From Planctomycetota bacterium (GTDB lineage: Bacteria > Planctomycetota > Phycisphaerae > Phycisphaerales > UBA1924), in contig JBCBNT010000003.1 of assembly GCA_039821685.1 (NCBI GenBank), positions 2,603-66,602 on the forward strand: a stretch of 64,000 bases of DNA, written 5' to 3'. The notes under the pieces were generated by a model that worked only from the letters and a program-made list of their open reading frames with translations, ran no database searches and was not told where the DNA came from. A program made the position numbers and the translations under genes. This document shows, piece by piece, positions 3,018-18,358 of the stretch (positions are counted from its first letter, which is position 1; each line of letters opens with the position of its first letter).

Positions 3018-4214
3018 CTAGTTGAAACGGAAGGCGGTGATGTTCTGCCGACCATTTCGGGTGAGGTACGGCTCGATGGGCTTACCGTCGCCGAAGTACT
3101 CGTCGAGAATCTCGACCGCGGCAGGGTTTCTGGAGACATCGTCGTTGTTTGACTGCCCGGCCCCGATCGCGATGTGACGGCTTCGGATGTAGGTCTCCGC
3201 CAATTCCTCATTGGCTCGCTTGAACGCGACGTGCCCATCGGCGAAGCTCACGTTGATGCCCGAGGCACCGTGGTTGCCGGTAAGCTTGTCGGGCCAGTTG
3301 TTCACCAGCGGCGAGTTCCCCTCGTTGAAGCCGTACGCCTCGTACACAACCCGCGATTGGTCCTCGTCAGAGTCGAGCGTGAGAAGCACCTGGCTCGGGA
3401 AGGTCACGTTGTTGACCGACTTGACATAGTCATCAAGGGCTCCGAGCTGCCCCGGAGAAAACACGGGCTCACCGGGCCGGGGATCGTCGTTGCCAGTCCC
3501 GAAGTAGCCGAACCAGCCATCGTCCGTCGGGCTGGAGTAGCCACGGTCACGGTTGTAGTCGCGGCTCACCCTCGACGCCGTCAGCCCGCCAACGTTCGAC
3601 GCGGTGTACCGCAGCCGGTCGAAACCATCGGGCCATCGCACGAGGTCGCCGAACGGACCCCCCTGGACGCCGAACCACGAGAACACCTCGTAGCTGTGCC
3701 CACGGAACCGCTGATTGCTCTGTAGATCGCCGTCTCCGGTGAGGGCGTCGCTGATGCTGGCCTCGACCGCGTTCCGGGTCAGGTCGAGCGGTACGGGCCT
3801 GCCGTGCAGATTGCGCTCCACCCCTTCAACCGGGATGATATTGCCCTGCCCGTCGCTGACACGGCCGTCCGGCAGTATGACCACGGTCGGATCGACGTCG
3901 TGGCGGGTGCCGGCGCACACGGCGGCTTCGGGGGTTTCCAGCTCGTTGACGAGGTAGCCGAGGTTGTCGGAACCGCCGCTGATGGTCGGCACAAACGCTC
4001 CGGCTTTGTTGCTGCCGTTCGCGTACACGTTCGCAGCGAGCGCGATCATCCGTTGGCCTGCAGCGCACGCGACGCGTTGCGACGTCTCGCGGGCTTTGCC
4101 AAGGGCGGGAAGAAGGATTCCGATCAGCAGCGCGATGATCGCGATGACCACGAGCAACTCAATGAGAGTAAACGCTCGGGTCGATCGGTTCGACGTTCTG
4201 TGATGGGTCAGCAT
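3018..4214 (-). CDS. Prepilin-type N-terminal cleavage/methylation domain protein (DUF1559-like pseudopilin paralogue)
   Basis: The N-terminus after the internal Met (cat 4212-4214) is [43 protein letters not shown]. The C-terminal ..NVSFADGHV motif is typical of this family. Confidence 0.85.
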   Translation of the reverse strand: MLTHHRTSNRSTRAFTLIELLVVIAIIALLIGILLPALGKARETSQRVACAAGQRMIALAANVYANGSNKAGAFVPTISGGSDNLGYLVNELETPEAAVCAGTRHDVDPTVVILPDGRVSDGQGNIIPVEGVERNLHGRPVPLDLTRNAVEASISDALTGDGDLQSNQRFRGHSYEVFSWFGVQGGPFGDLVRWPDGFDRLRYTASNVGGLTASRVSRDYNRDRGYSSPTDDGWFGYFGTGNDDPRPGEPVFSPGQLGALDDYVKSVNNVTFPSQVLLTLDSDEDQSRVVYEAYGFNEGNSPLVNNWPDKLTGNHGASGINVSFADGHVAFKRANEELAETYIRSRHIAIGAGQSNNDDVSRNPAAVEILDEYFGDGKPIEPYLTRNGRQNITAFRFN

Positions 4215-6621: not shown

Positions 6622-6683
6622 CCTGATCCGACCAGCGCCGCCCGGCACGCGGGAACGAGGCCACGCGACCACAACTCAGCAAG

Positions 6684-6757
6684 CACCCCCGGAAGGACTC
6701 GAACCTTCACTCTGCGGATTAGAAGTCCGCTGCATTATCCAGTTATGCTACGAGGGC
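6684..6757 (-). tRNA. tRNA-Arg (anticodon TCT)
   Basis: Reverse complement reads GCCCTCG TA GCAT AACTGGATA ATGC A GCGGA CTTCTAA TCCGC AGAGT GAAGG TTCGAGT CCTTC CGGGGGT G. This is a 74-nt cloverleaf with anticodon TCT, a G1-U72 wobble and no encoded CCA. Confidence 0.9.
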
Positions 6758-6967
6758 GTCCCGAAATCGTAACCGCGCCGCGAGGGCTGCGTCGGACTTG
6801 ACGCCCGAGCATCTGCGAAAGCGACCGGGGCGAAGCCGCGTGGGCATGCGAGATCTCCCCAATCACCCCATCACCACGCGAGGCACATGTCCGCAAAGCA
6901 AGCGCGGCATCGTGCCGATTGCCATTGATCGCAGCGGTCAAATCCTCCACGCCGACTATTATCCATC

Positions 6968-7942
6968 GTGACCAGAACCGACTCCATGCTTTCCCGCCAC
7001 GAGGCGGCTTCTGTTTCGCCGCGGGATGCTCGCACGAAGAGCCTTGCGAGGGAATTTCTGACGCTCTCGAAGCCGGGCATTACCCGGCTCGTGACGGTCG
7101 CCTCAGCGGCCGGGTTCGGGCTGGCGTCGTTCCGCAGCGGCGGAGGCGGCGAAGGGCTCGCGATCGCCGCAGCAGGCTGCGTGCTCGGGACCGCGGCAGC
7201 CTCGGCGGGTGCGAACGCGCTGAACCAGGTTATCGAGGTCGAGCGCGACGCAATCATGGCTCGGACCGCCTCGCGCCCCCTCCCGTCAGGACGCCTGACC
7301 AGGCCTCAGGGACTTGCGTTTGCACTCGCGTGCTCGGTCGCTGGTCCTCTCCTGCTCGCATTGACCACCAACTGGGTCGCCGCCTCGCTCGCTGCGCTCA
7401 CGGTCGTGCTCTATGTCGCGGTCTACACGCCGCTCAAGCTCGTGAGCCCGATCTCGACGTTCGTCGGAGCGATCCCGGGGGCGCTCCCGTGCGTGATCGG
7501 ATGGACCGCGGGCTCCGCCGAGCCGCTCGCCGAACTCGGCCGGCTCCCGGCCTGGTCGTTTTTCGTTGTCCTGCTGACCTGGCAGATCCCCCACTTCCTC
7601 GCGATCGCGATGATGTACCGCGAGCAGTACACGAGCGCCGGGTTCGTGCCGATCTCGCCGAACGCATCGTCAAAGCGTGTCGCACTCCAGATCGTTGCAT
7701 GGACGGGGCTTACGGTCCTGGCATCCGCGGTCCCGCTCGCGGTGATGCCAGAATCCATCGGCGTTCTCTACGCATCGGTCGCGGCTCTGTCCGGAGCGTT
7801 CTTCCTCTCGCAAGCGGTGTCGATGCTGCAGTCGCCCACGAAGGCCGCGGCCCGTGCCGTGTTCTTTGCGTCAATCGGCTACCTGCCGATTGTCTTCATT
7901 GCGCTCGTCATCGATGCGTTTGCTTGGAATCCAGAGCTGTAA
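6968..7942 (+). CDS. ctaB: Protoheme IX farnesyltransferase (heme O synthase)
   Basis: UbiA-family motifs: LSKPGITRLV, NALNQVIEVERDAIMARTASRPLPSGRL and IPHFLAIAMMYREQY. The protein is multi-TM. The ORF starts with GTG at 6968, with an alternative ATG at 6986. Confidence 0.9.
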   Translation: MTRTDSMLSRHEAASVSPRDARTKSLAREFLTLSKPGITRLVTVASAAGFGLASFRSGGGGEGLAIAAAGCVLGTAAASAGANALNQVIEVERDAIMARTASRPLPSGRLTRPQGLAFALACSVAGPLLLALTTNWVAASLAALTVVLYVAVYTPLKLVSPISTFVGAIPGALPCVIGWTAGSAEPLAELGRLPAWSFFVVLLTWQIPHFLAIAMMYREQYTSAGFVPISPNASSKRVALQIVAWTGLTVLASAVPLAVMPESIGVLYASVAALSGAFFLSQAVSMLQSPTKAAARAVFFASIGYLPIVFIALVIDAFAWNPEL

Positions 7943-8015
7943 GGCACGTACAGCTCGCCGCGCGAACGAGCGCGGACGCTCGCGTCGCCGAACCCACCCG
8001 CGGAGGCCCGAACAC

Positions 8016-8666
8016 ATGCCCCGTCCCCCCGCTGTTCTCGTTGTTGCTTGCCTCGGCGTAGCCGTGTGCACGTTCGGTGCGATGAGCATGCTGAACAGTC
8101 ATCGCTCCGAACTCCAGCGGTCCGCGACGGCACCCGAAATCGCTTCCGCCGGCATGTCGATCGGTGAGTTCGACCTGATCGATCAGAACGGCGAACCGGT
8201 CGACGAGACGATCCTCGATGGCGCGCACACGGTCGTGAGCTTCATCTTCACCAACTGCCCGGGCCTCTGCCCGACAATGACCCAGGCGAAAGCGCGTTTG
8301 CAAGACCGCGTCGACGACCTGCCGGTCCGCATGCTTTCGATCAGCCTCGACGCCGAGCGGGATACGCCCGCCGTGCTGAGCGCCTTCGGCGAGCGTTTCA
8401 ACGCACGCTTCGATTCTTGGACGTTCGCAACAGGTGACACCGCCGAAGCGCGCCGCATCGTCGCGGAAGATCTGCTGCTGGTTGTCGAAGACGAGACCGA
8501 ACGGATGGTACCGACCGCCGACGGAAGCGAGATGGCGAACATCTTGCATCCGACCCGCCTGATCCTCGTCGGGCCGGGCCGCGAGATACTGGGCTTCTAT
8601 TCCGTGCTCGACGCGTCGGGCCTCGACTCGCTCGAAGACGAGCTCCGGTCGCGACTCGGGTCCTGA
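8016..8666 (+). CDS. SCO1/SenC-family copper chaperone / thiol-disulfide protein
   Basis: It has the CxxxC motif FIFTNCPGLCPTM and a downstream His (ILHPTRLILVGP). The internal start MPRPPAVLVVACLGVAV (ATG 8016) gives an N-terminal anchor. It is adjacent to ctaB. Confidence 0.85.
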   Translation: MPRPPAVLVVACLGVAVCTFGAMSMLNSHRSELQRSATAPEIASAGMSIGEFDLIDQNGEPVDETILDGAHTVVSFIFTNCPGLCPTMTQAKARLQDRVDDLPVRMLSISLDAERDTPAVLSAFGERFNARFDSWTFATGDTAEARRIVAEDLLLVVEDETERMVPTADGSEMANILHPTRLILVGPGREILGFYSVLDASGLDSLEDELRSRLGS

Positions 8667-9481
8667 CCCCGTTCGCTGTCACGTTCGATCCGGTCTCGAA
8701 GCCGATCGATCGATGCGTGCACGTTCGACATCAGCCCGCCCCCCGGCAGCGATCGGAGCGATTGCACGAGCGCCGGGATAGCCTCACACCGAAGACTACC
8801 GCGGGCACGGGCCGGGTCGGCGTTCGTCGCGTCCACTCTGGGCCTGACCCCAAATGCCCGGCACACCTGCGCCGGGAGCTCCGGCTCGGTACGGAGCATC
8901 GGGCGGATCACGGTCACGCCGTCTTCGATCGCTGGACGAGACTCGTGGATCCCGAGCAGCGCGGCCGGGGACGCGCCGCGCCCCATCGCGAGCAACACCG
9001 TTTCGAGCTGGTCACCACCGTGGTGCGCGGTCGCCAGCCAGCCGCAGCCTTCGCGGCGCGCGAGCCGGCTGAGAGCACGGTACCGCGCATCCCTTGCCTC
9101 ATGCTCCGCGTTTCCGCCCGAAATCGAAACATGCTCAGTGACGACACGGGCGCCGAGCAGTCTGCCGAGACGGAGCACCGCCGCACGATCGTCGTGCACA
9201 AGCTCGGCCGGACGCAGATCGTGCTGCACGGTTGCGAGAACCACACGGGGAGCGTCGAGCGTGCCGAGAGCAATCGCGAGCGCCATCGAGTCGGCGCCGC
9301 CGGAGATTCCGATGAGTGTCGACCGTGCCGGGTCGGGGGTCGCGTCTCCGCCCGTCAAACGCCGCCAAGCCCGCCGCACGTCACGGATCCATGCCCCGAC
9401 CAGCGAGTTCTCCGATTCATGACCCACGCCCAATCGTAGCGGCAGCCGCGAGGTATCCTGTACCCATGGCGCCCACCGCAA
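8597..9481 (-). CDS. tilS: tRNA(Ile)-lysidine synthetase (short form)
   Basis: It has the PP-loop LIGISGGADSMAL, the motif ATAHHGGDQLETVLL, and IRPMLR. The exact start is uncertain because the upstream part of the ORF overlaps the next plus-strand gene. Confidence 0.8.
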   Translation of the reverse strand: MRWAPWVQDTSRLPLRLGVGHESENSLVGAWIRDVRRAWRRLTGGDATPDPARSTLIGISGGADSMALAIALGTLDAPRVVLATVQHDLRPAELVHDDRAAVLRLGRLLGARVVTEHVSISGGNAEHEARDARYRALSRLARREGCGWLATAHHGGDQLETVLLAMGRGASPAALLGIHESRPAIEDGVTVIRPMLRTEPELPAQVCRAFGVRPRVDATNADPARARGSLRCEAIPALVQSLRSLPGGGLMSNVHASIDRLRDRIERDSERGQDPSRDRSSSSSESRPDASSTE

Positions 9482-10038
9482 CTCAGGCGAACGATCTGAC
9501 GCCCTCTCAGGAAAGCTCCGGAGCAGTTCCGGGCGAGCGGTCTCGCGAGACGGGCGAGCAGATGCTGCCCAGCGTGCTCCTCGCCGCCGCCGTGGTGCTC
9601 CTGATTATCGTGGTGCTCGGGAAGTCGCGTCGAAAGGCGATCGCCCGTTCGCAAGAGATCGTGCCGACGCCGCAGGAAAGGCTTGCGGATCTCCGGCAGC
9701 GGGCCGCGAACGACGCGGGCATCGAAGCGCGCGTCGCGCACGCCGCCGATCAGATCCGCGAGCTCACGGCCGTGCTCGATACACGCATCGCCACACTCGA
9801 CGCGCTGATCCAGCAGGCAGACGAACGCATCGATGCTCTGAGCAACCGCTCCACCCCAACGGCTCATACAGCACGGGGAAAGACGCCAGAGCACACACCG
9901 ACGAGCTCCCAGGGGGACCAGCAGCGGTCGGCGATTTATGAGCTGGCCGATCAGGGCCTCGCGGCACCAGAAATCGCGGCAAGGCTCGGCCAGCACGCCG
10001 GAAAGGTCGAGCTCATCCTCGCTCTGCGTCGCGCCTGA
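9466..10038 (+). CDS. Hypothetical single-pass membrane protein with a coiled-coil region and a C-terminal HTH-like (DUF2802-like) segment
   Basis: The ATG at 9466 gives MAPTATQ... It has the TM segment MLPSVLLAAAVVLLIIVVLG. The C-terminus reads SAIYELADQGLAAPEIAARLGQHAGKVELILALRRA. No catalytic motif was recognised. Confidence 0.5.
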   Translation: MAPTATQANDLTPSQESSGAVPGERSRETGEQMLPSVLLAAAVVLLIIVVLGKSRRKAIARSQEIVPTPQERLADLRQRAANDAGIEARVAHAADQIRELTAVLDTRIATLDALIQQADERIDALSNRSTPTAHTARGKTPEHTPTSSQGDQQRSAIYELADQGLAAPEIAARLGQHAGKVELILALRRA

Positions 10039-10981
10039 CCGCGTCGAGCGCGAGCAGCTCGAAGGCGATGTGGGCCGCGAGCAGGGCCGTGTTGCCCGCG
10101 ACATCACGATCGGGCAGCACCTCGACCACGTCCGCGCCGATCAGGTTGAGCCCGCGGAGCCGCCGGATCAATCCGAGGGCATCGGCCGACGTCATACCGC
10201 CCACGCTCGGCGTTCCCGTCCCCGGCGCATAGGCCGGATCGATGCAGTCGATATCAAAGCTCACGTAGCACGGCGCGCCGGCGAGATCGCTCGCGAACTC
10301 CGTGAGCCTCGCCGGCCCTCGCTCGGCGAGCTCGGGCTGGGTGATCACCTCGATGCCCTGTGCCTGGGCGTACTCCAGATCATCACCCGAGTTGAGCGGC
10401 CCCTTGATGCCAACCGAGAGCATCCGCGCCGGGTCGAGCACGCCGTCTTCGATAAGCCGCCGGAAGGGCGTGGCATGGTTCCACCGCTCGCCCCACACCG
10501 AGTCGAGCGTGTCCATGTGGCTATCGAAATGCACGCACGCCAGCCCTGAAGCCGGAGAACCCGCCCGCTGCCACGCCGCGGTCATGCCCGCGTAGACGAT
10601 CGAGTGGTCGCCCCCCAGCACGAGCAGGCGGTCGGCATCGAGGCCCGCCGCGTGATCGATCACGCCATCGAGCGTCTTCTTGACGCTGTAAGGAAGCACC
10701 GGCGCATCGCCGGCATCGGCGAGCGAGAGCACACCGGGAACGTCAATCCCGTGCTCGATCGAGTAGTGCTTCAGATACTGCGACTGCTCGCGGATCGCAC
10801 GGGGCCCAAACCGGGCACCGGGCCGGTAGGTCACGCCACCGTCGAACGGCACCCCGAGGATCGCCCAGTCGGGGCGGCCATCGGCGTCGCTCAGCGTTGG
10901 ATAGCGGCCGAAGGTCGACAGCCCCCCGAACCGCGGCTGCACGCGCGCATCGGGCAGTCGCGTCCGGCGATCCGGGCTCAC
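10013..10981 (-). CDS. Arginase/agmatinase-family ureohydrolase (agmatinase or guanidino-acid hydrolase-like)
   Basis: Motifs: GVPFDGGVTYRPGARFGPRAIRE, LVLGGDHSI, VHFDSHMDT and SFDIDCIDPAYAPGTGTP. These are the Mn-binding signatures. The GTG start overlaps the astD stop (GTGA at 10978-10981). Confidence 0.88.
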   Translation of the reverse strand: MSPDRRTRLPDARVQPRFGGLSTFGRYPTLSDADGRPDWAILGVPFDGGVTYRPGARFGPRAIREQSQYLKHYSIEHGIDVPGVLSLADAGDAPVLPYSVKKTLDGVIDHAAGLDADRLLVLGGDHSIVYAGMTAAWQRAGSPASGLACVHFDSHMDTLDSVWGERWNHATPFRRLIEDGVLDPARMLSVGIKGPLNSGDDLEYAQAQGIEVITQPELAERGPARLTEFASDLAGAPCYVSFDIDCIDPAYAPGTGTPSVGGMTSADALGLIRRLRGLNLIGADVVEVLPDRDVAGNTALLAAHIAFELLALDAVRRDAERG

Positions 10982-12537
10982 GAGCCGATCCAGTCGTCTT
11001 TGACGAGCATGCCCTGCGGCACGCCGGCGCCGTCGCTCGACTCGACCATGCTCGCCACGGGCATCGCCGTGTAATCAAGGCTGAACGATCCCGCGGGGCG
11101 GTGATTCCCCGACAGCCCGAGCCCGCCAAATGGCAGCTTGCTGCTCGCACCCGCCGTGCCCGTATTCACGTTCACGCACCCCGCCCGTGCTTCAGCGAGG
11201 AACCTCGCCCGAGACTCGGGATCGGTCGTGAAGATCGAGGATGCCAGGCCGAACCTCGTCGCGTTCGCCTGCTCGATCGCGTCGTCGAGCGACCCGACCC
11301 GGCAGACGCGCAGGAGCGGGCCGAACACCTCGAGGTCGCAGCCGGCATCGCGGGATTCGTCCGCGACAAACCGCTCGATCTCGAGCACGCCGGGCGTGAC
11401 GTAGTACCCGTCATCGCCCTCGGCATCGAGCGACCTGGTCGTGCTCGCGAGAAGCGTGGTCGCGCCGTCTTCGACCAGGCGTTCCTGAAACGCGAGCACG
11501 GCATCGCGGGCATCGGCCGACACGATGGGCCCCATAAACACGGGGTGCTCCGACCGCGGGTGCGCGACGACCAGGTTGCCCGCGATCTTGCACACCGCCG
11601 CCACGAATTGATCCGCGACCGACTCGTGCACGATCAGCCGACGCGTGCAGGTGCAGCGCTGCCCGGTGGTGATGAACGCCCCACGCGTGACCTCGATCGC
11701 CGCCTGACGCATGTTCGCATCGGGCATCACGATCGCGGGGTTGTTCCCGCCCATCTCGAGCGCGACGATGCGGCCGGGCCGATCAAGGTTGCTCTCCAGT
11801 ATCTTCCGCCCGACGGGCCAGGAGCCTGTGAACAGGATCCCGTCGATCCCGGCGTGCGTCGTGAGCCTGATCGCCGTCTCGGGTCCGCCCTGCACGAGGT
11901 TGACCACGCCAGCGGGAGCGCCCTCGGCGCGGAGCGCTTCGTCGAGCATCTCTACAAGCGCCTGCCCGACCGCCGGGGTCTTCTCGCTCGGCTTGAAAAC
12001 AACGGTATTGCCGGTCGCGAGTGCAGGAATGATGTGCCCGTTCGGCAGATGGGCCGGGAAGTTGTACGGGCCGATCACCGCCATCACGCCGTGCGGCCGG
12101 AACGAACACCGGCCCGTCCGCGTGTCGGTCAGCGGCACGTCGTACCCTGTCACCCGCCTCAGACCGCCGTGCTCGGAATCATCGAGCGTGATATCGACCT
12201 TGCCAGCCAAGATGCCCGCCTCGGCCATGGAATCCCACATCGCCTTGCCCGTCTCATCGCAGATGAGCGAACCGAGCGAGTCCTTCCTCTCGGCGCACAA
12301 CGCCTGATACCGCCGCAGGACGGCGATCCGCCGCTCCATCGGCCAGCGGGCCCACACGCGCCCCGCCGCCGAGGCCGAGGCCACCGCCTGATCGACGTGG
12401 TCGATGTTCGGATCAAACCCGTAAATCGTCTCGGCGGGGCGCGCCGGGTTCAGAGACCGGATGCCGTCGCCTCTGATCGAACGGAACTCGCCACCGATCA
12501 GATCACTCGGCTCGTTCTGCAACGCTGGATGGTTCAT
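10978..12537 (-). CDS. astD: N-succinylglutamate 5-semialdehyde dehydrogenase-like aldehyde dehydrogenase
   Basis: It has the ALDH fold with ..VALEMGGNNP.. and ..GQRCTCTRRL.. (catalytic Glu and Cys motifs). The N-terminal region parallels AstD (..AAGRVWARWPMERRIAVLRRY..). It is adjacent to astA. Confidence 0.8.
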   Translation of the reverse strand: MNHPALQNEPSDLIGGEFRSIRGDGIRSLNPARPAETIYGFDPNIDHVDQAVASASAAGRVWARWPMERRIAVLRRYQALCAERKDSLGSLICDETGKAMWDSMAEAGILAGKVDITLDDSEHGGLRRVTGYDVPLTDTRTGRCSFRPHGVMAVIGPYNFPAHLPNGHIIPALATGNTVVFKPSEKTPAVGQALVEMLDEALRAEGAPAGVVNLVQGGPETAIRLTTHAGIDGILFTGSWPVGRKILESNLDRPGRIVALEMGGNNPAIVMPDANMRQAAIEVTRGAFITTGQRCTCTRRLIVHESVADQFVAAVCKIAGNLVVAHPRSEHPVFMGPIVSADARDAVLAFQERLVEDGATTLLASTTRSLDAEGDDGYYVTPGVLEIERFVADESRDAGCDLEVFGPLLRVCRVGSLDDAIEQANATRFGLASSIFTTDPESRARFLAEARAGCVNVNTGTAGASSKLPFGGLGLSGNHRPAGSFSLDYTAMPVASMVESSDGAGVPQGMLVKDDWIGS

Positions 12538-12576
12538 GCACGCTCCCGCGACGCGACACGCCGCCCTTTGAATAGA

Positions 12577-13770
12577 TCATCTTTTCGAAACGGCCTTGCT
12601 CTGCTTGTCCCGGCGAGGACGCCGCTTTGATGGAGGCTTCGATGGCGGGCCCTTCGCCGGAATCAGCGGAGTCACACCGACGACCGCGCCCAAATCGGCA
12701 CCGAGGATGCGGGTCGCATCCGCCGTCAGCGAGATGGTCTCCCCGCGGATGAGCGCCAGCTCATCGACCGCTCGGAACTCGCCGTCGCTATCGAGGGTGC
12801 TCACGATGCACGGCATCTTGCAACGGCTCTCCGCGACCGGCCTGCCCAGGGTCATCCGCGTGGTGTCCCGCACCGGCGCGATGTCCTTGGTGATGCAGTC
12901 CAGGTACGGCCCCGCGTCGAACGGATCGACGAAGCCCCTGAACTCGAAGCCGAGCCGCTCGAGCATCCGCCGAGCCGGCTTCGTGTCCTCGCCGACCTCG
13001 CCGATGCCGGCCCGCACGTTCGGCGGCAGCAGGCTCAGGTAGATCGGCTCTCGAGGCAGCAGGCTCGTGATGAATTCGCGGCTGTACTGGCAGAAGCGGT
13101 CCGCTTCCTCGTAGCTGAGCGGGATGAACCGCCTGCCCAGGTAATCCCAGACCAGGTTCTGCCCGTCGCTCGAGATCGGGGCCATCATCTCGGCGAGCAC
13201 CCTGTCGGCGAACCGCCGCGGGTGCAGCCCCATCATGTGGAAGCGCACGAGGCTCAGAAATCTGCCCAATTTCTTCGGGTGCCCGCGGTAACTCGGCTGC
13301 AGGATCAGCCCGCCGATCTCCGTGGGGCCCGATTCATCGAGATGCAGCTCTGCGACCATGTGCTTCGTGCCGGTCTGCAGCGCCGTCGAAAAGAAATCCC
13401 GCTCGCTGAGCCGGAACGAGACCTGCGGGTTGCCGGGCCCGCCCATCCGGCTGATGACCTGGCTTGTCCCGAGCACGGCGCCACTCTCGGTATCCTCGAG
13501 CACATACATAAACAGATCGCTCTCGTTCGTCGAGGCGCCAAACCCTGCGAGCTTTCCGTTTGATGAAGGCGCCGCCGACACCGTCGCCGGCACCGCATCG
13601 GGCTTCGGCTTCCGGCGGCTGCCGCAGACCTTCAGGAACGAGTTGCGGCTGTGCACGATCTTGGCCTGCACGATGTCCTTGTCGGGCGGCAGGTTGATGA
13701 AGTGGACCATCTTCGCCAGCTTCAGCAGCGTCGGCGCGTCGTCCAGCTTGGCTCGTCTGATGCGGAACAC
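12577..13770 (-). CDS. astA: Arginine N-succinyltransferase
   Basis: AstA-like blocks: MFRIRRAKLDDAPTLLKLA, YVLEDTESGAVLGTSQV, TEIGGLILQPSYRG, VLAEMMAPISSDGQNLVWDYLGRRF and PARRMLERLGFEFRGFVDPFDAGP. It has an extra basic C-terminal tail. Confidence 0.85.
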   Translation of the reverse strand: MFRIRRAKLDDAPTLLKLAKMVHFINLPPDKDIVQAKIVHSRNSFLKVCGSRRKPKPDAVPATVSAAPSSNGKLAGFGASTNESDLFMYVLEDTESGAVLGTSQVISRMGGPGNPQVSFRLSERDFFSTALQTGTKHMVAELHLDESGPTEIGGLILQPSYRGHPKKLGRFLSLVRFHMMGLHPRRFADRVLAEMMAPISSDGQNLVWDYLGRRFIPLSYEEADRFCQYSREFITSLLPREPIYLSLLPPNVRAGIGEVGEDTKPARRMLERLGFEFRGFVDPFDAGPYLDCITKDIAPVRDTTRMTLGRPVAESRCKMPCIVSTLDSDGEFRAVDELALIRGETISLTADATRILGADLGAVVGVTPLIPAKGPPSKPPSKRRPRRDKQSKAVSKR

Positions 13771-13875
13771 GGGTCACCTCCGATGAGGTTCGTTGCGGCG
13801 CGTCGTTCGTGACTCCCGCCCGACTCTCGAGCAGTGAAGCCGCGGGGACTCCGCCAGACCCGCCGATCACACTGC

Positions 13876-15330
13876 CTAGCCAGCAGCCTTGGCCAGCCCC
13901 CGCTCGATGCACTCGAAGACCCTCGGCCAGTCCGCGACATCCATCGCGCCCAGCGGCGGGAGCATCCGCACGTGGTACGGGCCGTGGCCGCACCAGAACA
14001 AGATCACACCCTCGTCGAAGCACGCCTTGCACGCCGCGGCGATCTTGGCCTTGTCGCCGCCGAAAGGCGTGAACCGCATCATGCCGCCGATGCCGGCGCC
14101 CGCGACGTCGCCGCCCGCGAACCGCGCGTCGGGGAACCAGTCCGGATGCCGGCTCTTCAGCCCCTGAACCTGCTCGCGGAACGCCGCATGGTGCTTGGCG
14201 ATCGAGCCGGACTCGCCGTAGTAATCCCCGTCGCGCAGAAGCTCGAGGATCCGCGTACCGACGGCGAAGTCCTGCCCTGCACCGGTGAACGTGCCCGACA
14301 GCAGGCCGCCGCGCGGGTTGTACTCCTCGGTATAGAGCGTCGCACACGCCTGGGTCATCTTGCCGACGCAGAAGACGTCGACGTAGTCGCCAAGGTCGTA
14401 CGTCTCATAGGCAAACATCTCACCGGTGCGGCCGAAGGACTGGATCTCGTCGTCCCAGACGGCGATCCCGTTGTCCTTGCAGATGTCCATCAGCGCCGTG
14501 AAGAACTCCCGCGGCGCGGTGTTGAACCCGCCCTCGCCCTGCACGAGCTCAAAGATAAAGCACGCGTGCATCTTCGGGTAGCGGTCGATCGCCTGCTGCA
14601 AGCGCCAGCACGCGTGATCGATGAACTTCGTCTTGCCTCCGACCAGCTCCGCCGCCTCGTCGTTCCAGAACGGCATGTAGTCGACCTGCGTCGTAAGCGG
14701 GATCCCGTCGCGGCCCGCGGCCGAATCGCCGATCTGGCACATCGTCACGCTGCGACCCATGAAGCAGTGCTTGAACGCGAGCACCCGGCTCGCCGGGAAG
14801 TTCTTCTGGTAGCACACCTTGATCGCGCTCTCGTTCGCCATCGCGCCCGACGTGGTGATGAAGGCATGCTTCAGGTTGCTCTTCCGCTGCGCGAGCTCGA
14901 GGAGCGTCTCACCGAACCGGTACGCCTCGAAGCCCGATTGCAGGTTGCCGTGCTTGGCGACGTCCTCCATCGACCACGCGACGGACGCCCGGACCAGCTC
15001 CGGGTGCGAATGACCGAAGAAGTGCACACCGATGCCGGAGATCATGTCCCACTTCACGCTGCCGTCCGCGAGCTCGACGAGGGGGCCGTTGCCGAGACCC
15101 GAGCCGATGTAGGGGTACAGCAGCCCCCGGCCCTTGACCTCGGCGGCCCGGGCCATCAACGCCTCGTAGTCCTCCGAAGCGCCGTCTCGCGGACCGCGGG
15201 CGTCCGTGATGCCAGCGGAGAGCTCGCCGACACGCGACGCGATCGCATCGACCGCCGCGACGATCGCCGGATCGGTCGCGAGCTGGGAACCGATGCTGTG
15301 CCCGGTGGTCGCCTGTGTCATCTCGCTCAT
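13876..15330 (-). CDS. Class-III PLP-dependent aminotransferase (candidate succinylornithine/omega-amino acid transaminase)
   Basis: It has the class-III pattern: ..VELADGSVKWDMISGIGVHFFGHSHPELV.., ..TTSGAMANESAIK.., ..IAVWDDEIQSFGRTGEMFA... At 484 aa it is longer than canonical AstC/ArgD. Confidence 0.8.
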   Translation of the reverse strand: MSEMTQATTGHSIGSQLATDPAIVAAVDAIASRVGELSAGITDARGPRDGASEDYEALMARAAEVKGRGLLYPYIGSGLGNGPLVELADGSVKWDMISGIGVHFFGHSHPELVRASVAWSMEDVAKHGNLQSGFEAYRFGETLLELAQRKSNLKHAFITTSGAMANESAIKVCYQKNFPASRVLAFKHCFMGRSVTMCQIGDSAAGRDGIPLTTQVDYMPFWNDEAAELVGGKTKFIDHACWRLQQAIDRYPKMHACFIFELVQGEGGFNTAPREFFTALMDICKDNGIAVWDDEIQSFGRTGEMFAYETYDLGDYVDVFCVGKMTQACATLYTEEYNPRGGLLSGTFTGAGQDFAVGTRILELLRDGDYYGESGSIAKHHAAFREQVQGLKSRHPDWFPDARFAGGDVAGAGIGGMMRFTPFGGDKAKIAAACKACFDEGVILFWCGHGPYHVRMLPPLGAMDVADWPRVFECIERGLAKAAG

Positions 15331-15454
15331 GTCGATGTATCTCCTCTCGCCGTTCGAGGCCGAACCGCGGTATCAGCAGGCAATATCGGGCCGAAATCGG
15401 GGTGTATCAAGCGGCGCCCGACCACCGCGACCCGGAATCTTGCTCTGCCTGTCT

Positions 15455-16627
15455 TCATTGTTGGCTCAGCCGCCGAAGAAGAACAGCAAGAAGCTGGCAA
15501 CGCTCCACAAGGCTCGGCAGCTCGATCCATTCGTCGGGCGTGTGGAGCCCCCCGCCGCGGACGCCGAGCGTGTCGATCGTGGGAAGCCCGGCGTCCTGCA
15601 TGATGTTCCCGTCGCACACGCCGCCCGTCTTCGCGAACGGCAGACTCTGTCCAAGCGACTCGGCGGACGACCGCGCGAGCTCCGCAAGCCGCCGAGTCCC
15701 CTCGATCAGGGGCTTCGCAGGGCGGTTGAAGCTGCGATGCACGCGCACGGCCGGCAGCGATGGCCCCGACGTGGCGAGCGCGTCCAGCTCTCGCGCCAGC
15801 TCCTCGGCGACCTCGGGCTCGTGGAACCGCACGTTCCCCCACGCCCGTGCCTCATCGGGCACGGCGTTCGTCGCAGCACCGCCAGAGATCGGCCCGATGT
15901 TCACGATCTTGCCACGGTCCGCATCGGGCATCGCGCCGCACGCAACGATGACCTCGCCAAGCTTCGTCACCGCAGAAACACCCTCGGAAAACGCGCGGCC
16001 GACATGCGCGCTCCGGCCCTCGACCTCGACCATGAACTGCCCCGAGCCCGCCCGCTCGACTGCCAACTCGCCTCCCGCGAGCGCGGGCTCCAACGCGATG
16101 CCAAAGTCGTGCTCGCCGCTCGCGGCCCGCAACGCCCCGTCGGAGTGGTACGTCCCGGTCTCCTCGTCCGCGTTGAGAAAGAAGGACCAGCTGACGTGCT
16201 CGCCCACTTCGTGGAGCGCCTCGATCGCGTGCAGAGCGATCACGAGCCCGCCTTTCATATCGACGCAGCCGGGTCCCGTCGCCCTCGTGTCATCGACAAC
16301 CGTCAGGCTCCGGAAATCAGAAGCCGGATCGTGCACCGTATCAAGATGACCAGCGACCAGGACCCTCGGCCCCCGGCCCGCTGGCCCCTCGGTCAGCGAC
16401 GAACGCGGGATCGCGTCGTTGCCGCCCATCCACTCAGGACGAGGATTGCCCGGCGTGTACGAGGTTCGGCCACCCACGGCGTGCAGACGTTCGATAATCC
16501 GCTCGCGGGAGGCCTCGATCGCGTCGAGGTTGTTCCCACCGGTCGGGGTGTCGACGTGCCACCGCAGATCCTCGAAGAGCGCATCCCGACGCGCTTCAAT
16601 CGCCGCGATCAGGCGGTCATCGCTCAT
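15455..16627 (-). CDS. M20-family metallo-amidohydrolase (carboxypeptidase G2 / DapE / ArgE-like deacylase)
   Basis: Motifs: VLVAGHLDTVH, GPGCVDMKGGLV and FFLNADEETG. The start MSDDRLIAAIEAR (cat 16625-16627) overlaps the upstream stop as ATGA. Confidence 0.85.
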   Translation of the reverse strand: MSDDRLIAAIEARRDALFEDLRWHVDTPTGGNNLDAIEASRERIIERLHAVGGRTSYTPGNPRPEWMGGNDAIPRSSLTEGPAGRGPRVLVAGHLDTVHDPASDFRSLTVVDDTRATGPGCVDMKGGLVIALHAIEALHEVGEHVSWSFFLNADEETGTYHSDGALRAASGEHDFGIALEPALAGGELAVERAGSGQFMVEVEGRSAHVGRAFSEGVSAVTKLGEVIVACGAMPDADRGKIVNIGPISGGAATNAVPDEARAWGNVRFHEPEVAEELARELDALATSGPSLPAVRVHRSFNRPAKPLIEGTRRLAELARSSAESLGQSLPFAKTGGVCDGNIMQDAGLPTIDTLGVRGGGLHTPDEWIELPSLVERCQLLAVLLRRLSQQ

Positions 16628-18102
16628 CGCCCCTCCGATCGCCGAAGGGTCCCGAGATCGATCACAGCGCCGCTCGGAAAGAAGGCGTCGGCGTTCATCT
16701 CGTCCTCTGAAACCGTTGTGAACACGATGCACGTCCGCCCGTAGAGCGAGGCATAGTTCAGATCCCCGTCGCTCGGCCCGGCGTACTGGCTGTTCCGCAC
16801 CCGCTGCGCGTGCAGGTGGTAGTGCGCGAGCGACGTCGCGGATTCATCGATGAGCTCACGAGACGCGACAAACGACGTGTCGCCCTCCCGGATGCTCGCC
16901 CGGGGCGGGTACGACACGGCCGTGAACATCCCCCGGCTCGTCCGGTTCTGCGCGAGCCGGAGCACGCCGCCGTACTCTGTCGTCGTATCAGCACGGTCTT
17001 CTTCTGCCTGGTCAAAGAGCGCGGCGATCACCCGCGGCTCGCGGATTGCTTCACTGACCACACGCAGCGTCACGGCATCTCCGAACGACAGGCGATCGCG
17101 CCACGATTCGAGGTTCTCGCTCGCCACCGCGCCCGCCCGCCGCCTGTGCAACGTCTCAGCATCGAGCTGATCCTCGAGCACATCGAGCAACGCGCCCTTG
17201 CTCATGCGTGTCCAGTCTCGTCGAAAGGTGGACGCCCAGCGAAGAGGCTCCATGTGCCGGAGGCGGAGGCCGCGCTGCTGCGGAGCGTCGAGCGTCCGGA
17301 CGATCACGTTCACGCTCTGCCACCAGTCGGCGTTTTCCCGCGAGGCGAGCTGCACGAGCCATTCGAGTTCCTGGCCCGTCAACGGGATCGTGCGGAGCTC
17401 GAGCAGTGCGCGGCGGAGGGCATCGAGGGTCGGGTCATCTTCCTGCTCCTGCGAGCGGGCGAGGCCCCCGAGCAGGTTGACCCGGATATCACCGCTCGCG
17501 TCGAGACGGGAAAGCAGGTTCCACGCGTCGCGGCGGAGGCGGCCGGAATCATCGAGGCCGCCGCTCTCGCGGAAGACCTGGAACACCGTCTCTTCAACGT
17601 CACGCTCCGGATGCAGCGCCTGCAAAGCGGCGTACTCGGGCCTCCGTGTGTCAGCGGTCGATGCGTCGGGCCGCGCGAACCGGCGGACGATCGCCGGCGT
17701 GAGCTCACGCCAGCCGTTCAACGCCGCCTGGCCGACAAGGTAGCGGGCGATGGACGCCTGCGGCTCCGTCGGCAGGATCTGTGCGACAAACGAGACCGCC
17801 TCGGAATCATCGAGCAGCGCGGTCTCGCCGAGGAGAACGATCATCGCGGCCTCGCGCTCCGTCGGCACCACCTCGCGGGCCCACGCGACCGCTTTGAGTC
17901 GCTCGATCGCCGACTCGCGTCCCAAGGTCCCGTCTTCGATCAGCGATGGAAACTGCGAGACAACGCTCACCCGCTCCCGGCTCGTGAGCGACGGGTTTAC
18001 GACGTCGTTGAGCGGATCAGCGGACACGAAGGTCCGCGTCCCGCCGCTGCACCCAACGAGCATGCCGGCGATTGCGACCAGCGGCACGACGCGACCTAGC
18101 AT
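16624..18102 (-). CDS. Lipoprotein of unknown function with a C-terminal JAMM/MPN-like motif
   Basis: Signal and lipobox: MLGRVVPLVAIAGMLVGCSGG (start taken at cat 18100-18102). The C-terminus reads TEYGGVLRL ... SYPP ... AHYHLHAQRVRNSQYAGPSDGD, which resembles E..GG.L / HxH / SxxD. Upstream GTG (18126) and ATG (18117) starts are also possible. Confidence 0.6.
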   Translation of the reverse strand: MLGRVVPLVAIAGMLVGCSGGTRTFVSADPLNDVVNPSLTSRERVSVVSQFPSLIEDGTLGRESAIERLKAVAWAREVVPTEREAAMIVLLGETALLDDSEAVSFVAQILPTEPQASIARYLVGQAALNGWRELTPAIVRRFARPDASTADTRRPEYAALQALHPERDVEETVFQVFRESGGLDDSGRLRRDAWNLLSRLDASGDIRVNLLGGLARSQEQEDDPTLDALRRALLELRTIPLTGQELEWLVQLASRENADWWQSVNVIVRTLDAPQQRGLRLRHMEPLRWASTFRRDWTRMSKGALLDVLEDQLDAETLHRRRAGAVASENLESWRDRLSFGDAVTLRVVSEAIREPRVIAALFDQAEEDRADTTTEYGGVLRLAQNRTSRGMFTAVSYPPRASIREGDTSFVASRELIDESATSLAHYHLHAQRVRNSQYAGPSDGDLNYASLYGRTCIVFTTVSEDEMNADAFFPSGAVIDLGTLRRSEGR

Positions 18103-18115
18103 TGTCTTGTACACC

Positions 18116-18358
18116 ATGGAAAGCACTCTACCACTTCACGACCGCGTCGTACGCATCCTGAACCTGATCCGGCCGGCGGTGCAATCCGACGGAGGCGATA
18201 TCGAGCTCGTGCAGGTGACGGACGACGGCGAAGTCCGCATCCGGTTGCACGGCGCGTGCGTCGGGTGCCCCTCGAGCAGCATGACGCTGCGGATCGGCAT
18301 CGAGCAGAACCTCCGGGAGCACGTCCCGGAGATCAGCTCTGTCGTAGCTGTCGACTGA
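18116..18358 (+). CDS. NifU-like Fe-S cluster scaffold/carrier domain protein (Nfu-type)
   Basis: The sequence is VVRILNLIRPAVQSDGGDIELVQVTDDGEVRIRLHGACVGCPSSSMTLRIGIEQNLRE, with the CxxC motif of NifU C-terminal domains. Confidence 0.85.
   Translation: MESTLPLHDRVVRILNLIRPAVQSDGGDIELVQVTDDGEVRIRLHGACVGCPSSSMTLRIGIEQNLREHVPEISSVVAVD

What the first reader, a model, noticed from the sequence alone, without database searches (positions are those of the whole stretch)
10013..16627. Non-canonical arginine succinyltransferase (AST) cluster: AstB and AstE apparently replaced by an arginase-fold ureohydrolase and an M20 deacylase
- **Gene order:** Five minus-strand genes lie head to tail, with coupled junctions (ATGA at 16624-16627, GTGA at 10978-10981). 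They are an M20 amidohydrolase, a class-III aminotransferase, AstA, AstD and an agmatinase-family ureohydrolase.
- **What is present:** AstA and AstD are recognisable, and the aminotransferase could supply the AstC step.
- **What is missing:** There is no succinylarginine dihydrolase (AstB) and no succinylglutamate desuccinylase (AstE).
- **Inference:** N2-succinylarginine may be cleaved by the ureohydrolase to N2-succinylornithine plus urea. The final desuccinylation may be done by the M20 enzyme, which belongs to the family of DapE and ArgE (N-succinyl/N-acetyl deacylases). That would be a urea-releasing variant of the AST pathway.
Basis: inference. Interest (0 to 1): 0.6.

Follow-up and report, generated by a model that had tools for sequence, protein, structure and literature searches.

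The report
Urea-releasing variant of arginine succinyltransferase pathway
In this planctomycete an arginine-breakdown operon ends in an "agmatinase-like" gene that, across its whole order, is present almost exactly where the usual enzyme AstB is missing. It is therefore very probably an undescribed enzyme that splits succinyl-arginine into succinyl-ornithine and urea, although this particular genome also holds an AstB gene elsewhere.

Summary
**Observation.** The five minus-strand genes and both coupled junctions are real. A sixth gene, an unknown 500-aa protein, is coupled upstream. The organism is a Phycisphaerales (Planctomycetota) MAG.

**AstB.** An intact AstB sits on contig C93 as a single-gene insertion 38 nt after a tRNA-Ser. 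None of seven congeners has it.

**Order-wide pattern.**
- Of 301 Phycisphaerales genomes, 214 have AstA.
- Of those, 93 have only the ureohydrolase ortholog, 113 only AstB, 2 both (this genome and one other), and 6 neither.
- Of 87 AstA-less genomes, 1 has the ureohydrolase.
- Congeneric species differ by a clean 1-kb presence or absence of the gene after astD. AstA stays 75-85% identical across them.
- On a cluster tree, the ureohydrolase state changes at least 9 times.
- Nearest solved relatives are guanidino-acid hydrolases (GpuA, proclavaminate amidinohydrolase, GbuA), not SpeB.

**AstE.** No AstE was found. The M20 enzyme, which is carboxypeptidase-G2-like, accompanies AstA in 197 of 214 genomes against 1 of 87 without AstA.

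**Verdict.** This is a new variant of a known pathway. The enzyme activity is predicted, not assayed. The scan met the same layout before (e1-3827268) and left the ureohydrolase role unproven.

The parts
10013..10981 (-). Arginase-fold ureohydrolase ('UREO'), 322 aa, last gene of the operon. Proposed N2-succinyl-L-arginine amidinohydrolase (urea-forming).
   Evidence: - PF00491 257 bits. It passes agmatinase TIGR01230 (187.5 against 174.3) but not NF002564.
- All metal-ligand motifs are invariant in the ortholog alignment (GGDHS, HFDSHMD, DIDCIDP, GADVVEV).
- Nearest PDB entries are GpuA 230 bits, proclavaminate amidinohydrolase 222, GbuA 203 and SpeB 156.
- Order-wide it is complementary to AstB.
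- dN/dS against congeners is about 0.2.
10978..12537 (-). AstD-like succinylglutamate-semialdehyde dehydrogenase, 519 aa. Its TGA stop overlaps the GTG start of UREO.
   Evidence: - PF00171 379 bits.
- Best NCBIfam hits are NF006992 (466 bits) and TIGR03240 astD (451 bits), both below cut-off. The next family scores 297.
- The junction was read.
12577..13770 (-). AstA-family arginine N-succinyltransferase, 397 aa.
   Evidence: - PF04958 270 bits. TIGR03243/03244 score 195/176 bits, below cut-off.
- It is 75-85% identical between congeners that use AstB and congeners that use UREO.
13876..15330 (-). Class-III aminotransferase of a subfamily distinct from AstC/ArgD, 484 aa. Presumed succinylornithine transaminase.
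   Evidence: - PF00202 145 bits. TIGR03246 astC scores only 75.7 against a cut-off of 610.
- Nearest PDB entries are GABA transaminases at 93 bits. AstC 4adb scores 62.
- It sits between M20 and AstA in nearly all AST clusters examined across the order; in genus g32 the M20 gene is unlinked and AT heads the cluster.
15455..16627 (-). M20 metallohydrolase, 390 aa. Presumed N-succinylglutamate desuccinylase, standing in for AstE.
   Evidence: - PF01546 plus PF07687. NF005602 PRK07338 scores 311.6 (cut-off 357), glutamate carboxypeptidase NF004788 scores 181, and DapE/ArgE TIGR01910 only 76.
- The nearest PDB entry is carboxypeptidase G2.
- The ortholog is present in 197/214 AstA+ genomes and 1/87 AstA- genomes.
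16624..18126 (-). Unknown 500-aa protein ('p500'), translationally coupled (ATGA) to the M20 gene. It is the probable first gene of the operon.
   Evidence: - No Pfam or NCBIfam family.
- The junction was read.
- Homologs (27-67% identical) lie upstream of the M20 gene in families f1 and f2.

Best explanation
**Operon.** p500-M20-AT-AstA-AstD-UREO is the Phycisphaerales form of the arginine succinyltransferase (AST) pathway.

**Proposed steps.**
1. AstA makes N2-succinylarginine.
2. The arginase-fold enzyme (UREO) hydrolyses its guanidino group to give N2-succinylornithine plus urea. This is the step AstB normally performs, releasing 2 NH3 and CO2.
3. The non-AstC class-III aminotransferase gives succinylglutamate semialdehyde.
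4. The AstD-like dehydrogenase gives N-succinylglutamate.
5. The carboxypeptidase-G2-like M20 hydrolase releases succinate and glutamate, in place of AstE.

**Evolution (inferred).**
- UREO arose once, in the ancestor of three families of the order, in the operon slot after astD that AstB occupies in the outgroup families.
- It has since been lost many times wherever an unlinked AstB is present.
- This genome is one of two in 214 caught with both enzymes. Its AstB is a single-gene insertion beside a tRNA-Ser.

**Shown:** gene identities, the co-occurrence pattern, the indels and the trees.
**Inferred:** substrates and products of UREO, of the aminotransferase and of the M20 enzyme.
For: **Co-occurrence in 301 genomes of the order**
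- Among 214 AstA+ genomes: UREO only 93, AstB only 113, both 2, neither 6.
- Among 87 AstA- genomes: UREO in 1, AstB in 1.
- No UREO ortholog was found outside the order in a 301-genome phylum sample.

**Position in the operon**
- UREO follows astD on the same strand in 38 of 71 informative loci, and within 60 nt in 19.
- Here the two genes overlap (GTGA).
- In families f4 and f5, AstB holds that same slot.

**Clean swaps between close relatives**
- In genera g116 and g153 the clusters are colinear. Only the ~1 kb UREO gene is present or absent after astD.
- AstB-type genomes of family f1 keep NDK..p500-M20-AT-AstA-AstD-TilS without UREO.

**Phylogenetic control**
- The AT+AstD tree of 43 genomes needs at least 9 changes of UREO and at least 8 of AstB.
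- In 8 independent pairs that differ in UREO, AstB goes the opposite way in 5-7 and never the same way (median p 0.016).

**No sign that AstA changed substrate**
- AstA is 75-85% identical across UREO/AstB pairs. It is no more diverged than its neighbours.

**Family placement of UREO**
- The nearest solved relatives act on guanidino acids or an N-alpha-substituted arginine: GpuA, proclavaminate amidinohydrolase and GbuA.
- UREO orthologs form a 99%-supported clade apart from GpuA and proclavaminate amidinohydrolase.
- They carry extra invariant basic residues (R13, K71, R139, R292, H304).
- A separate SpeB-like paralog exists in the genome.

**M20 in place of AstE**
- No AstE was found in this genome.
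- A congener's AstE/AspA-family gene is DoeB-like, and it is missing at the syntenic site here.
- The M20 ortholog tracks AstA.
- The nearest solved structure to the M20 enzyme is carboxypeptidase G2.
Against: - No activity has been measured for any of these proteins.
- This genome has an intact AstB, so UREO is not needed here to complete the pathway.
- In 33 of 71 loci UREO is not next to AST genes. Conserved synteny with a convergent small gene and tilS could be partly inherited rather than selected.
- UREO passes the curated agmatinase model TIGR01230.
- Urease was found in 0 of 117 genomes of families f1-f3. No allophanate hydrolase above cut-off was found here. Urea nitrogen would therefore be wasted.
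- I chose the genomes for the tree test knowing their states.
- All genomes are MAG-grade. Contig C93 could in principle belong to a co-binned congener, although its guaA is the only copy in the bin.
Confidence: 0.65

Rival explanations
1. Arginase-first order of steps. UREO hydrolyses free L-arginine to ornithine plus urea. AstA then succinylates ornithine, as the Pseudomonas AruFG arginine/ornithine succinyltransferase can. The net pathway is the same and AstB is still dispensable.
For: - It explains the same complementarity with AstB and the same dependence on AstA.
- AstA's best NCBIfam hit is the arginine-and-ornithine succinyltransferase subfamily TIGR03243.
- From established knowledge, AruFG accepts ornithine.
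Against: - UREO scores only 58.8 bits against the arginase model TIGR01229.
- It groups with enzymes whose substrates lack a free alpha-amino group.
- AstA shows no extra divergence between AstB-type and UREO-type congeners. AstB-type AstA must make succinylarginine.
- Succinylating ornithine after an arginase step has no obvious advantage over direct ornithine transamination.
Confidence: 0.15
2. UREO is an ordinary agmatinase or guanidino-acid hydrolase (guanidinobutyrase or guanidinopropionase type), unrelated to the AST pathway. Its position after astD and its anticorrelation with AstB would reflect inherited synteny and shared ancestry.
For: - It passes TIGR01230 agmatinase, and public records name the orthologs 'agmatinase'.
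- Half of the loci lack adjacent AST genes.
- The UREO, small gene and tilS neighbourhood is itself conserved.
Against: - 95 of 96 UREO holders have AstA, and 94 of 96 lack AstB.
- Congeners differ by clean swaps.
- Independent contrasts never go the same way.
- The start codon overlaps the astD stop.
- A different paralog is the better SpeB candidate.
- The small gene between UREO and tilS is convergent, so tilS is not an operon partner.
Confidence: 0.1
3. In this particular genome the pathway runs through the newly acquired AstB. UREO is then redundant and on its way to loss, a transitional state rather than a working urea-releasing route.
For: - AstB is intact, including the GGGPACLRLR cysteine motif.
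- Genomes holding both enzymes are rare, 2 of 214, which suggests one copy is usually lost.
Against: - UREO keeps all metal ligands.
- Its dN/dS against congeners is 0.19-0.23, at the upper end of the range for other pairs, 0.08-0.23.
- It remains translationally coupled to astD.
- The G030/G246/G273 pattern suggests that both genes can coexist for long periods.
Confidence: 0.1

Closest known systems
Canonical AST pathway (E. coli astCADBE; Pseudomonas aeruginosa aruCFGDBE)
   Same: - An AstA-family succinyltransferase and an AstD-like dehydrogenase lie in one operon with an aminotransferase.
- The overall logic is the same: arginine goes to glutamate through N-succinylated intermediates.
   Different: - The aminotransferase is not of the AstC/ArgD subfamily.
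- There is no AstE. An M20 hydrolase takes its place.
- The operon's last gene is an arginase-fold ureohydrolase instead of AstB.
- An unknown 500-aa protein heads the operon.
AstB, N-succinylarginine dihydrolase (EC 3.5.3.23; PDB 1ynf)
   Same: The proposed substrate (N2-succinylarginine) and product (N2-succinylornithine) are the same. In relatives, AstB holds the same operon slot after astD.
   Different: - The fold and chemistry are unrelated. AstB is a pentein-fold cysteine hydrolase that releases 2 NH3 and CO2. UREO is a binuclear-metal arginase-fold enzyme predicted to release urea.
- This genome has both enzymes.
Guanidino-acid ureohydrolases: GpuA (3nip), GbuA (3nio) and proclavaminate amidinohydrolase (1gq6, EC 3.5.3.22)
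   Same: - They are the nearest solved relatives, at 203-230 bits.
- They share the same metal-binding motifs.
- Their substrates are guanidino compounds with a carboxylate and no free alpha-amino group. From my own knowledge, the substrate of proclavaminate amidinohydrolase is an N-alpha-substituted arginine derivative.
   Different: - UREO orthologs form their own clade (99% support).
- They carry 19 positions that are invariant among them and differ from both GpuA and proclavaminate amidinohydrolase. These include R13, K71, R139 and R292.
- Their genomic context is AST, not guanidino-acid or clavulanate pathways.
Carboxypeptidase G2 (1cg2) and PRK07338-type M20 hydrolases; M20-for-AstE AST operons noted earlier in this scan in chlamydiae and proteobacteria (e1-5014556, e1-4928735)
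   Same: - M20 catalytic domain plus dimerisation domain.
- Carboxypeptidase G2 cleaves an N-acyl-L-glutamate amide bond. That is the chemistry needed to desuccinylate N-succinylglutamate.
   Different: - The match to carboxypeptidase G2 is only 94 bits, and the score is below the PRK07338 cut-off.
- No substrate has been tested.
- I did not re-check the earlier scan notes.

Membership tests
AST pathway gene cluster | AstA-family arginine N-succinyltransferase | tested here: met
   PF04958 scores 270 bits against a cut-off of 29. It is below the NCBIfam equivalog cut-offs.
AST pathway gene cluster | AstD succinylglutamate-semialdehyde dehydrogenase | tested here: inconclusive
   The best hits are the AstD models (466 and 451 bits), well above other ALDH families (297 or less). 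Both are below their curated cut-offs of 514 and 579.
AST pathway gene cluster | AstC-type succinylornithine transaminase | tested here: not met
   It is a class-III aminotransferase, but TIGR03246 scores 75.7 bits against a cut-off of 610. E. coli AstC (4adb) scores only 62 bits.
AST pathway gene cluster | AstB succinylarginine dihydrolase | tested here: met
   It is not in the cluster or the window. It is present in the genome at C93:6787-8190, with PF04996 582 bits and 426 bits to 1ynf.
AST pathway gene cluster | AstE succinylglutamate desuccinylase | tested here: not met
   TIGR03242, PF04952 and PF24827 find nothing in the 92%-complete genome. The congener's PF24827 gene is absent at the syntenic site.
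Arginase/ureohydrolase superfamily (PF00491) | Family profile match and the conserved His/Asp metal-ligand motifs | tested here: met
   257 bits. H126, D153, H155, D157, D243, D245 and E287 are invariant in the ortholog alignment.
Agmatinase SpeB | Score above the curated equivalog and subfamily cut-offs, and closest similarity to true agmatinases | tested here: inconclusive
   - TIGR01230 scores 187.5, above its cut-off of 174.3. NF002564 scores 240, below its cut-off of 302.
- Solved agmatinases score lower (188, 156) than GpuA, proclavaminate amidinohydrolase and GbuA.
- Another paralog also passes TIGR01230.
   Scores are 76, 75 and 57 bits against cut-offs of 218, 304 and 298. The best family is PRK07338, at 311.6 against 357. 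The nearest structure is carboxypeptidase G2.
N2-succinylarginine amidinohydrolase (proposed activity; no family defined) | Urea release from N2-succinyl-L-arginine | not testable with these tools
   Only comparative-genomic support is available. No paper was found that holds both 'succinylarginine' and 'ureohydrolase'.

The most novel reading that the evidence does not exclude
UREO is a previously undescribed enzyme, a urea-forming N2-succinyl-L-arginine amidinohydrolase. It arose once within Phycisphaerales from a guanidino-acid hydrolase and took over AstB's operon slot. Since then it has been exchanged with horizontally re-acquired AstB genes at least eight times. Rare genomes such as this one are caught carrying both.
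Probability: 0.6. Interest if true: 0.7.

Novelty: new variant of a known kind. Interest (0 to 1): 0.6.

Why it matters
- It would add a new reaction, and a new EC-type activity, to one of the classic arginine catabolic pathways.
- It would correct the name 'agmatinase' now given to many of the several hundred orthologous Phycisphaerales proteins in public records.
- It is an unusually clean natural example of non-orthologous gene displacement, with two unrelated folds alternating at one pathway step many times within one bacterial order.
- It changes the predicted nitrogen output of these common aquatic planctomycetes from ammonia to urea. No urease was found in the families concerned. This bears on urea cross-feeding in lakes, wastewater and the sea.
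- It supports an M20 hydrolase as the general stand-in for AstE in AstE-less AST operons.

Tried and rejected
- **Mis-binned contig.** I tested whether AstB contig C93 was mis-binned. Its GC content and tetranucleotide profile are typical. Its guaA is the only copy in the bin. Its flanks are syntenic with congeners. I therefore kept it as part of the genome.
- **Neighbour gene calling.** A crude longest-ORF gene caller for UREO's neighbours failed in this high-GC DNA: it gave spurious antisense ORFs and could not place the ureohydrolase gene in 34 of the 80 loci. I used tblastn maps instead.
- **Urease enrichment.** The expected enrichment of urease in UREO-type genomes was not found. Urease alpha was in 0 of 117 genomes of families f1-f3. 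No allophanate hydrolase above cut-off was found here.
- **AstE/AspA family.** PF24827 occurs in half of the order. It also occurs in AstA-less genomes, lies away from the AST cluster where positions could be compared, and the congener's copy is DoeB-like. I rejected it as the pathway's AstE.
- **Third replacement enzyme.** In genus g82, which has AstA but neither AstB nor UREO, nothing recognisable lies next to the cluster.
- **Literature.** Searches for a succinylarginine ureohydrolase, or for M20 as an AstE substitute, found nothing relevant.
- **Structure prediction.** I did not run it. The fold is not in doubt, and the tool returns no coordinates for pocket analysis.
Full report
**What is in the window**

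Six co-directional minus-strand genes form one tight block:
- 16624-18126: an unknown 500-aa protein (p500) with no Pfam or NCBIfam family.
- 15455-16627: an M20 metallohydrolase.
- 13876-15330: a class-III aminotransferase.
- 12577-13770: an AstA-family succinyltransferase.
- 10978-12537: an AstD-like aldehyde dehydrogenase.
- 10013-10981: an arginase-fold ureohydrolase, called UREO below.

The p500 stop overlaps the M20 start as ATGA at 16624-16627. The astD stop overlaps the UREO start as GTGA at 10978-10981. The other gaps are 39-124 nt. Consensus scans give no convincing internal terminator. Downstream lie a small convergent plus-strand gene and tilS, so UREO is the last gene of the operon.

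None of the five enzymes reaches the curated equivalog cut-off of its canonical AST counterpart. The cluster is a diverged form of AST, not the E. coli type.

Record titles of the closest loci place the organism in Phycisphaerales, Planctomycetota. The assembly is a MAG of 3.10 Mb in 153 contigs, estimated 92% complete.

**AstB and AstE in the rest of the genome**

An AstB of 582 bits lies on the 11.9-kb contig C93.
- It is full length and aligns end to end with E. coli AstB (426 bits). The GGGPACLRLR cysteine motif is kept.
- The contig belongs to this genome as far as can be told. Its composition is typical. Its guaA is the only copy in the bin. Its flanks are syntenic with five congeners at 69-82% nucleotide identity.
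- In those congeners a tRNA-Ser(GCT) is followed within about 70-90 nt by the next conserved gene. In this genome 1.5 kb lies between them, and the AstB ORF starts 38 nt after the tRNA.
- None of seven same-genus genomes has AstB.
- This AstB is at most 52% identical to twelve other AstBs of the order. Its nearest public relative is 71% identical. That relative lies on a contig with a planctomycete-type ECF sigma factor next door.

I read the AstB gene as a single-gene horizontal acquisition.

AstE-type models (TIGR03242, PF04952, PF24827) find nothing. A PF24827 gene does exist in congener G002. It is DoeB/aspartoacylase-like rather than AstE. At the syntenic site of this genome the flanks are 158 nt apart, so the gene is truly missing there and is not hidden in an assembly gap.

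**The order-wide pattern**

The same sample of 301 Phycisphaerales genomes was searched for the UREO ortholog (51-76% identity over the full-length matches, with a wide gap to paralogs at 36% or less), AstB, AstA and the M20 ortholog (tallied).

| | UREO only | AstB only | both | neither |
|---|---|---|---|---|
| AstA present (214) | 93 | 113 | 2 | 6 |
| AstA absent (87) | 1 | 1 | 0 | 85 |

- The two genomes with both are this one and G295.
- The M20 ortholog is in 197 of 214 AstA-holders and in 1 of 87 others.
- UREO/AstB counts by family are f1 64/27, f2 21/49, f3 10/0, f4 0/35 and f5 0/4. Three genera contain species of both types.
- No UREO ortholog was found in about 290 genomes of the rest of the phylum.
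- The best 80 of 383 relatives in the species-level genome collection are all Phycisphaerales-type planctomycete MAGs (one titled only 'uncultured bacterium'). Where the public records name these proteins, it is almost always as 'agmatinase'.

**Gene-level anatomy of the switch**

- In families f4 and f5 the cluster reads M20-AT-AstA-AstD-AstB, or AT-AstA-AstD-AstB where the M20 was not detected next to it.
- In families f1-f3 it reads M20-AT-AstA-AstD, followed either by UREO or by nothing. When nothing follows, AstB lies at an unlinked site.
- Of 71 loci with enough upstream DNA, 38 have astD upstream of UREO on the same strand, 19 of them within 60 nt. The other 33 have lost the linkage.
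- Within genera g116 and g153 the clusters of UREO-type and AstB-type species are colinear at 67-77% nucleotide identity. Only the ~1 kb UREO gene is present or absent directly after astD.
- AstB-type genomes of the window's own family keep NDK..p500-M20-AT-AstA-AstD-TilS without UREO.

**Phylogenetic control**

- A tree of concatenated aminotransferase plus AstD from 43 genomes needs at least 9 changes of UREO presence and at least 8 of AstB presence.
- Among 8 independent pairs that differ in UREO, AstB differs in the opposite direction in 5-7 and never in the same direction (median p 0.016).
- I selected these genomes knowing their states. The unbiased evidence is the 301-genome table.
- UREO orthologs form one clade with 99% support, apart from GpuA and proclavaminate amidinohydrolase. 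Its inner branching roughly follows the families.
- This fits a single origin in the ancestor of f1-f3 followed by many losses. The pattern of G030, G246 and G273 suggests that some ancestors carried both genes for a long time.

**What UREO most likely does**

- It has every metal ligand of the arginase fold.
- Its dN/dS against congeners is about 0.2.
- Its nearest solved relatives are 3-guanidinopropionase (230 bits), proclavaminate amidinohydrolase (222) and guanidinobutyrase (203). These come ahead of true agmatinases (188, 156) and far ahead of arginases.
- Those relatives act on guanidino compounds that carry a carboxylate and lack a free alpha-amino group. From my own knowledge, the substrate of proclavaminate amidinohydrolase is an N-alpha-substituted arginine derivative.
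- The genome has a separate paralog that also passes the agmatinase model, and a HutG-like paralog.
- AstB's only known substrate is N2-succinylarginine, so AstA in AstB-type species must make that compound. AstA is 75-85% identical between AstB-type and UREO-type congeners, and is no more diverged than the neighbouring genes.
- The simplest reading is a one-enzyme swap at the same step: N2-succinylarginine plus water gives N2-succinylornithine plus urea.
- Nineteen positions are invariant in 118 orthologs and differ from both GpuA and proclavaminate amidinohydrolase. They include the basic residues R13, K71, R139, R292 and H304. These are candidates for binding the extra carboxylate. That is inference only.

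**The M20 enzyme and the aminotransferase**

- The M20 protein is not DapE/ArgE-like (57-76 bits against cut-offs of 218-304).
- Its best family is PRK07338 (311.6 against 357), followed by glutamate carboxypeptidase.
- Its nearest structure is carboxypeptidase G2, which cleaves N-acyl-L-glutamate bonds. That is the chemistry required for N-succinylglutamate.
- It co-occurs with AstA. It is also present in clusters that have AstB. So it replaces AstE independently of the UREO question.
- In the control panel, Caulobacter has AstA and AstB but no AstE. Earlier scan notes report M20-type AST operons in chlamydiae and proteobacteria. I did not check those notes. Both points suggest that this replacement is widespread.
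- The aminotransferase belongs to a subfamily closer to GABA transaminases than to AstC.

**Weak points**

- Nothing has been assayed.
- This genome does not need UREO, because it has AstB.
- Half of the UREO loci are unlinked from AST.
- UREO passes one curated agmatinase model.
- Urease was not found in any of 117 genomes of f1-f3. No allophanate hydrolase above cut-off is present here. The urea would therefore be excreted and half of arginine's nitrogen lost. This is not contradictory, but a predicted corollary failed.
- The arginase-first rival cannot be excluded from sequence alone.

**Comparison with what is known, and verdict**

No paper in the searchable library links succinylarginine to a ureohydrolase, or links an M20 hydrolase to succinylglutamate desuccinylation. 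From my own knowledge, no EC entry covers urea-forming hydrolysis of N-succinylarginine.

The scan had already met this layout in another Phycisphaerales genome (e1-3827268) and left the ureohydrolase's role unproven. The order-wide complementarity, the clean indels and the independent contrasts reported here are the new evidence.

I class the finding as a new variant of a known pathway. It contains a predicted new enzyme activity. My confidence in the mechanism is about 0.65.

Noticed in passing
window 16624-18126 (-): An unknown 500-aa protein is translationally coupled (ATGA) to the M20 gene. Homologs lie upstream of the AST cluster throughout families f1 and f2, usually with a 1-2.7 kb gap. 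It has no Pfam or NCBIfam family. It may be a sixth member of the operon.
   Followed up: partly
L002 (own genome contig C93) 1-8190: AstB (6787-8190) is inserted 38 nt after tRNA-Ser(GCT) (6658-6749). Further upstream, beyond a second tRNA-Ser(CGA) at 3876-3963, lie prophage-type genes: a terminase fragment, a DUF2924 gene and a large serine recombinase.
   Followed up: partly
L122, L123 (G159, G070; genus g82, family f4): These are near-complete genomes with M20-AT-AstA-AstD but neither AstB nor the UREO ortholog. Nothing recognisable follows astD. The AstB step may have a third, unidentified solution there, or the cluster may serve another substrate.
   Followed up: partly
genomes G055, G092, G108 (genus g85, family f4): These genomes have AstA and AstB, but no M20 ortholog at E<=1e-35. 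They carry two to three AstE/AspA-family (PF24827) genes. The last step may be solved differently in them.
   Followed up: no
L162 2288-3439 (G002) versus own contig C16 5546-5704: A DoeB/aspartoacylase-like PF24827 gene present in congener G002 is missing at the syntenic site of this genome. The flanks there are 158 nt apart instead of 2 kb.
   Followed up: yes
order-wide: Urease alpha was found in none of 117 genomes of families f1-f3 and in 11 of 71 genomes of f4/f5. The families that hold the urea-releasing enzyme therefore seem unable to use urea through urease.
   Followed up: partly
own genome C3:~75300-76260 (just beyond the window) and C30:25773-26693: The genome holds two further arginase-fold paralogs. 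One passes the agmatinase model (180.8 bits) and is the better SpeB candidate. The other is HutG-like.
   Followed up: partly
L137 (G061, family f5) about 8230-9597, and 7 kb further on: In this genome the AstB profile match is split into two pieces, which may indicate a frameshift. A PF24827 gene lies about 7 kb away. It is the only case I saw of an AstE/AspA-family gene near an AST gene.
   Followed up: no
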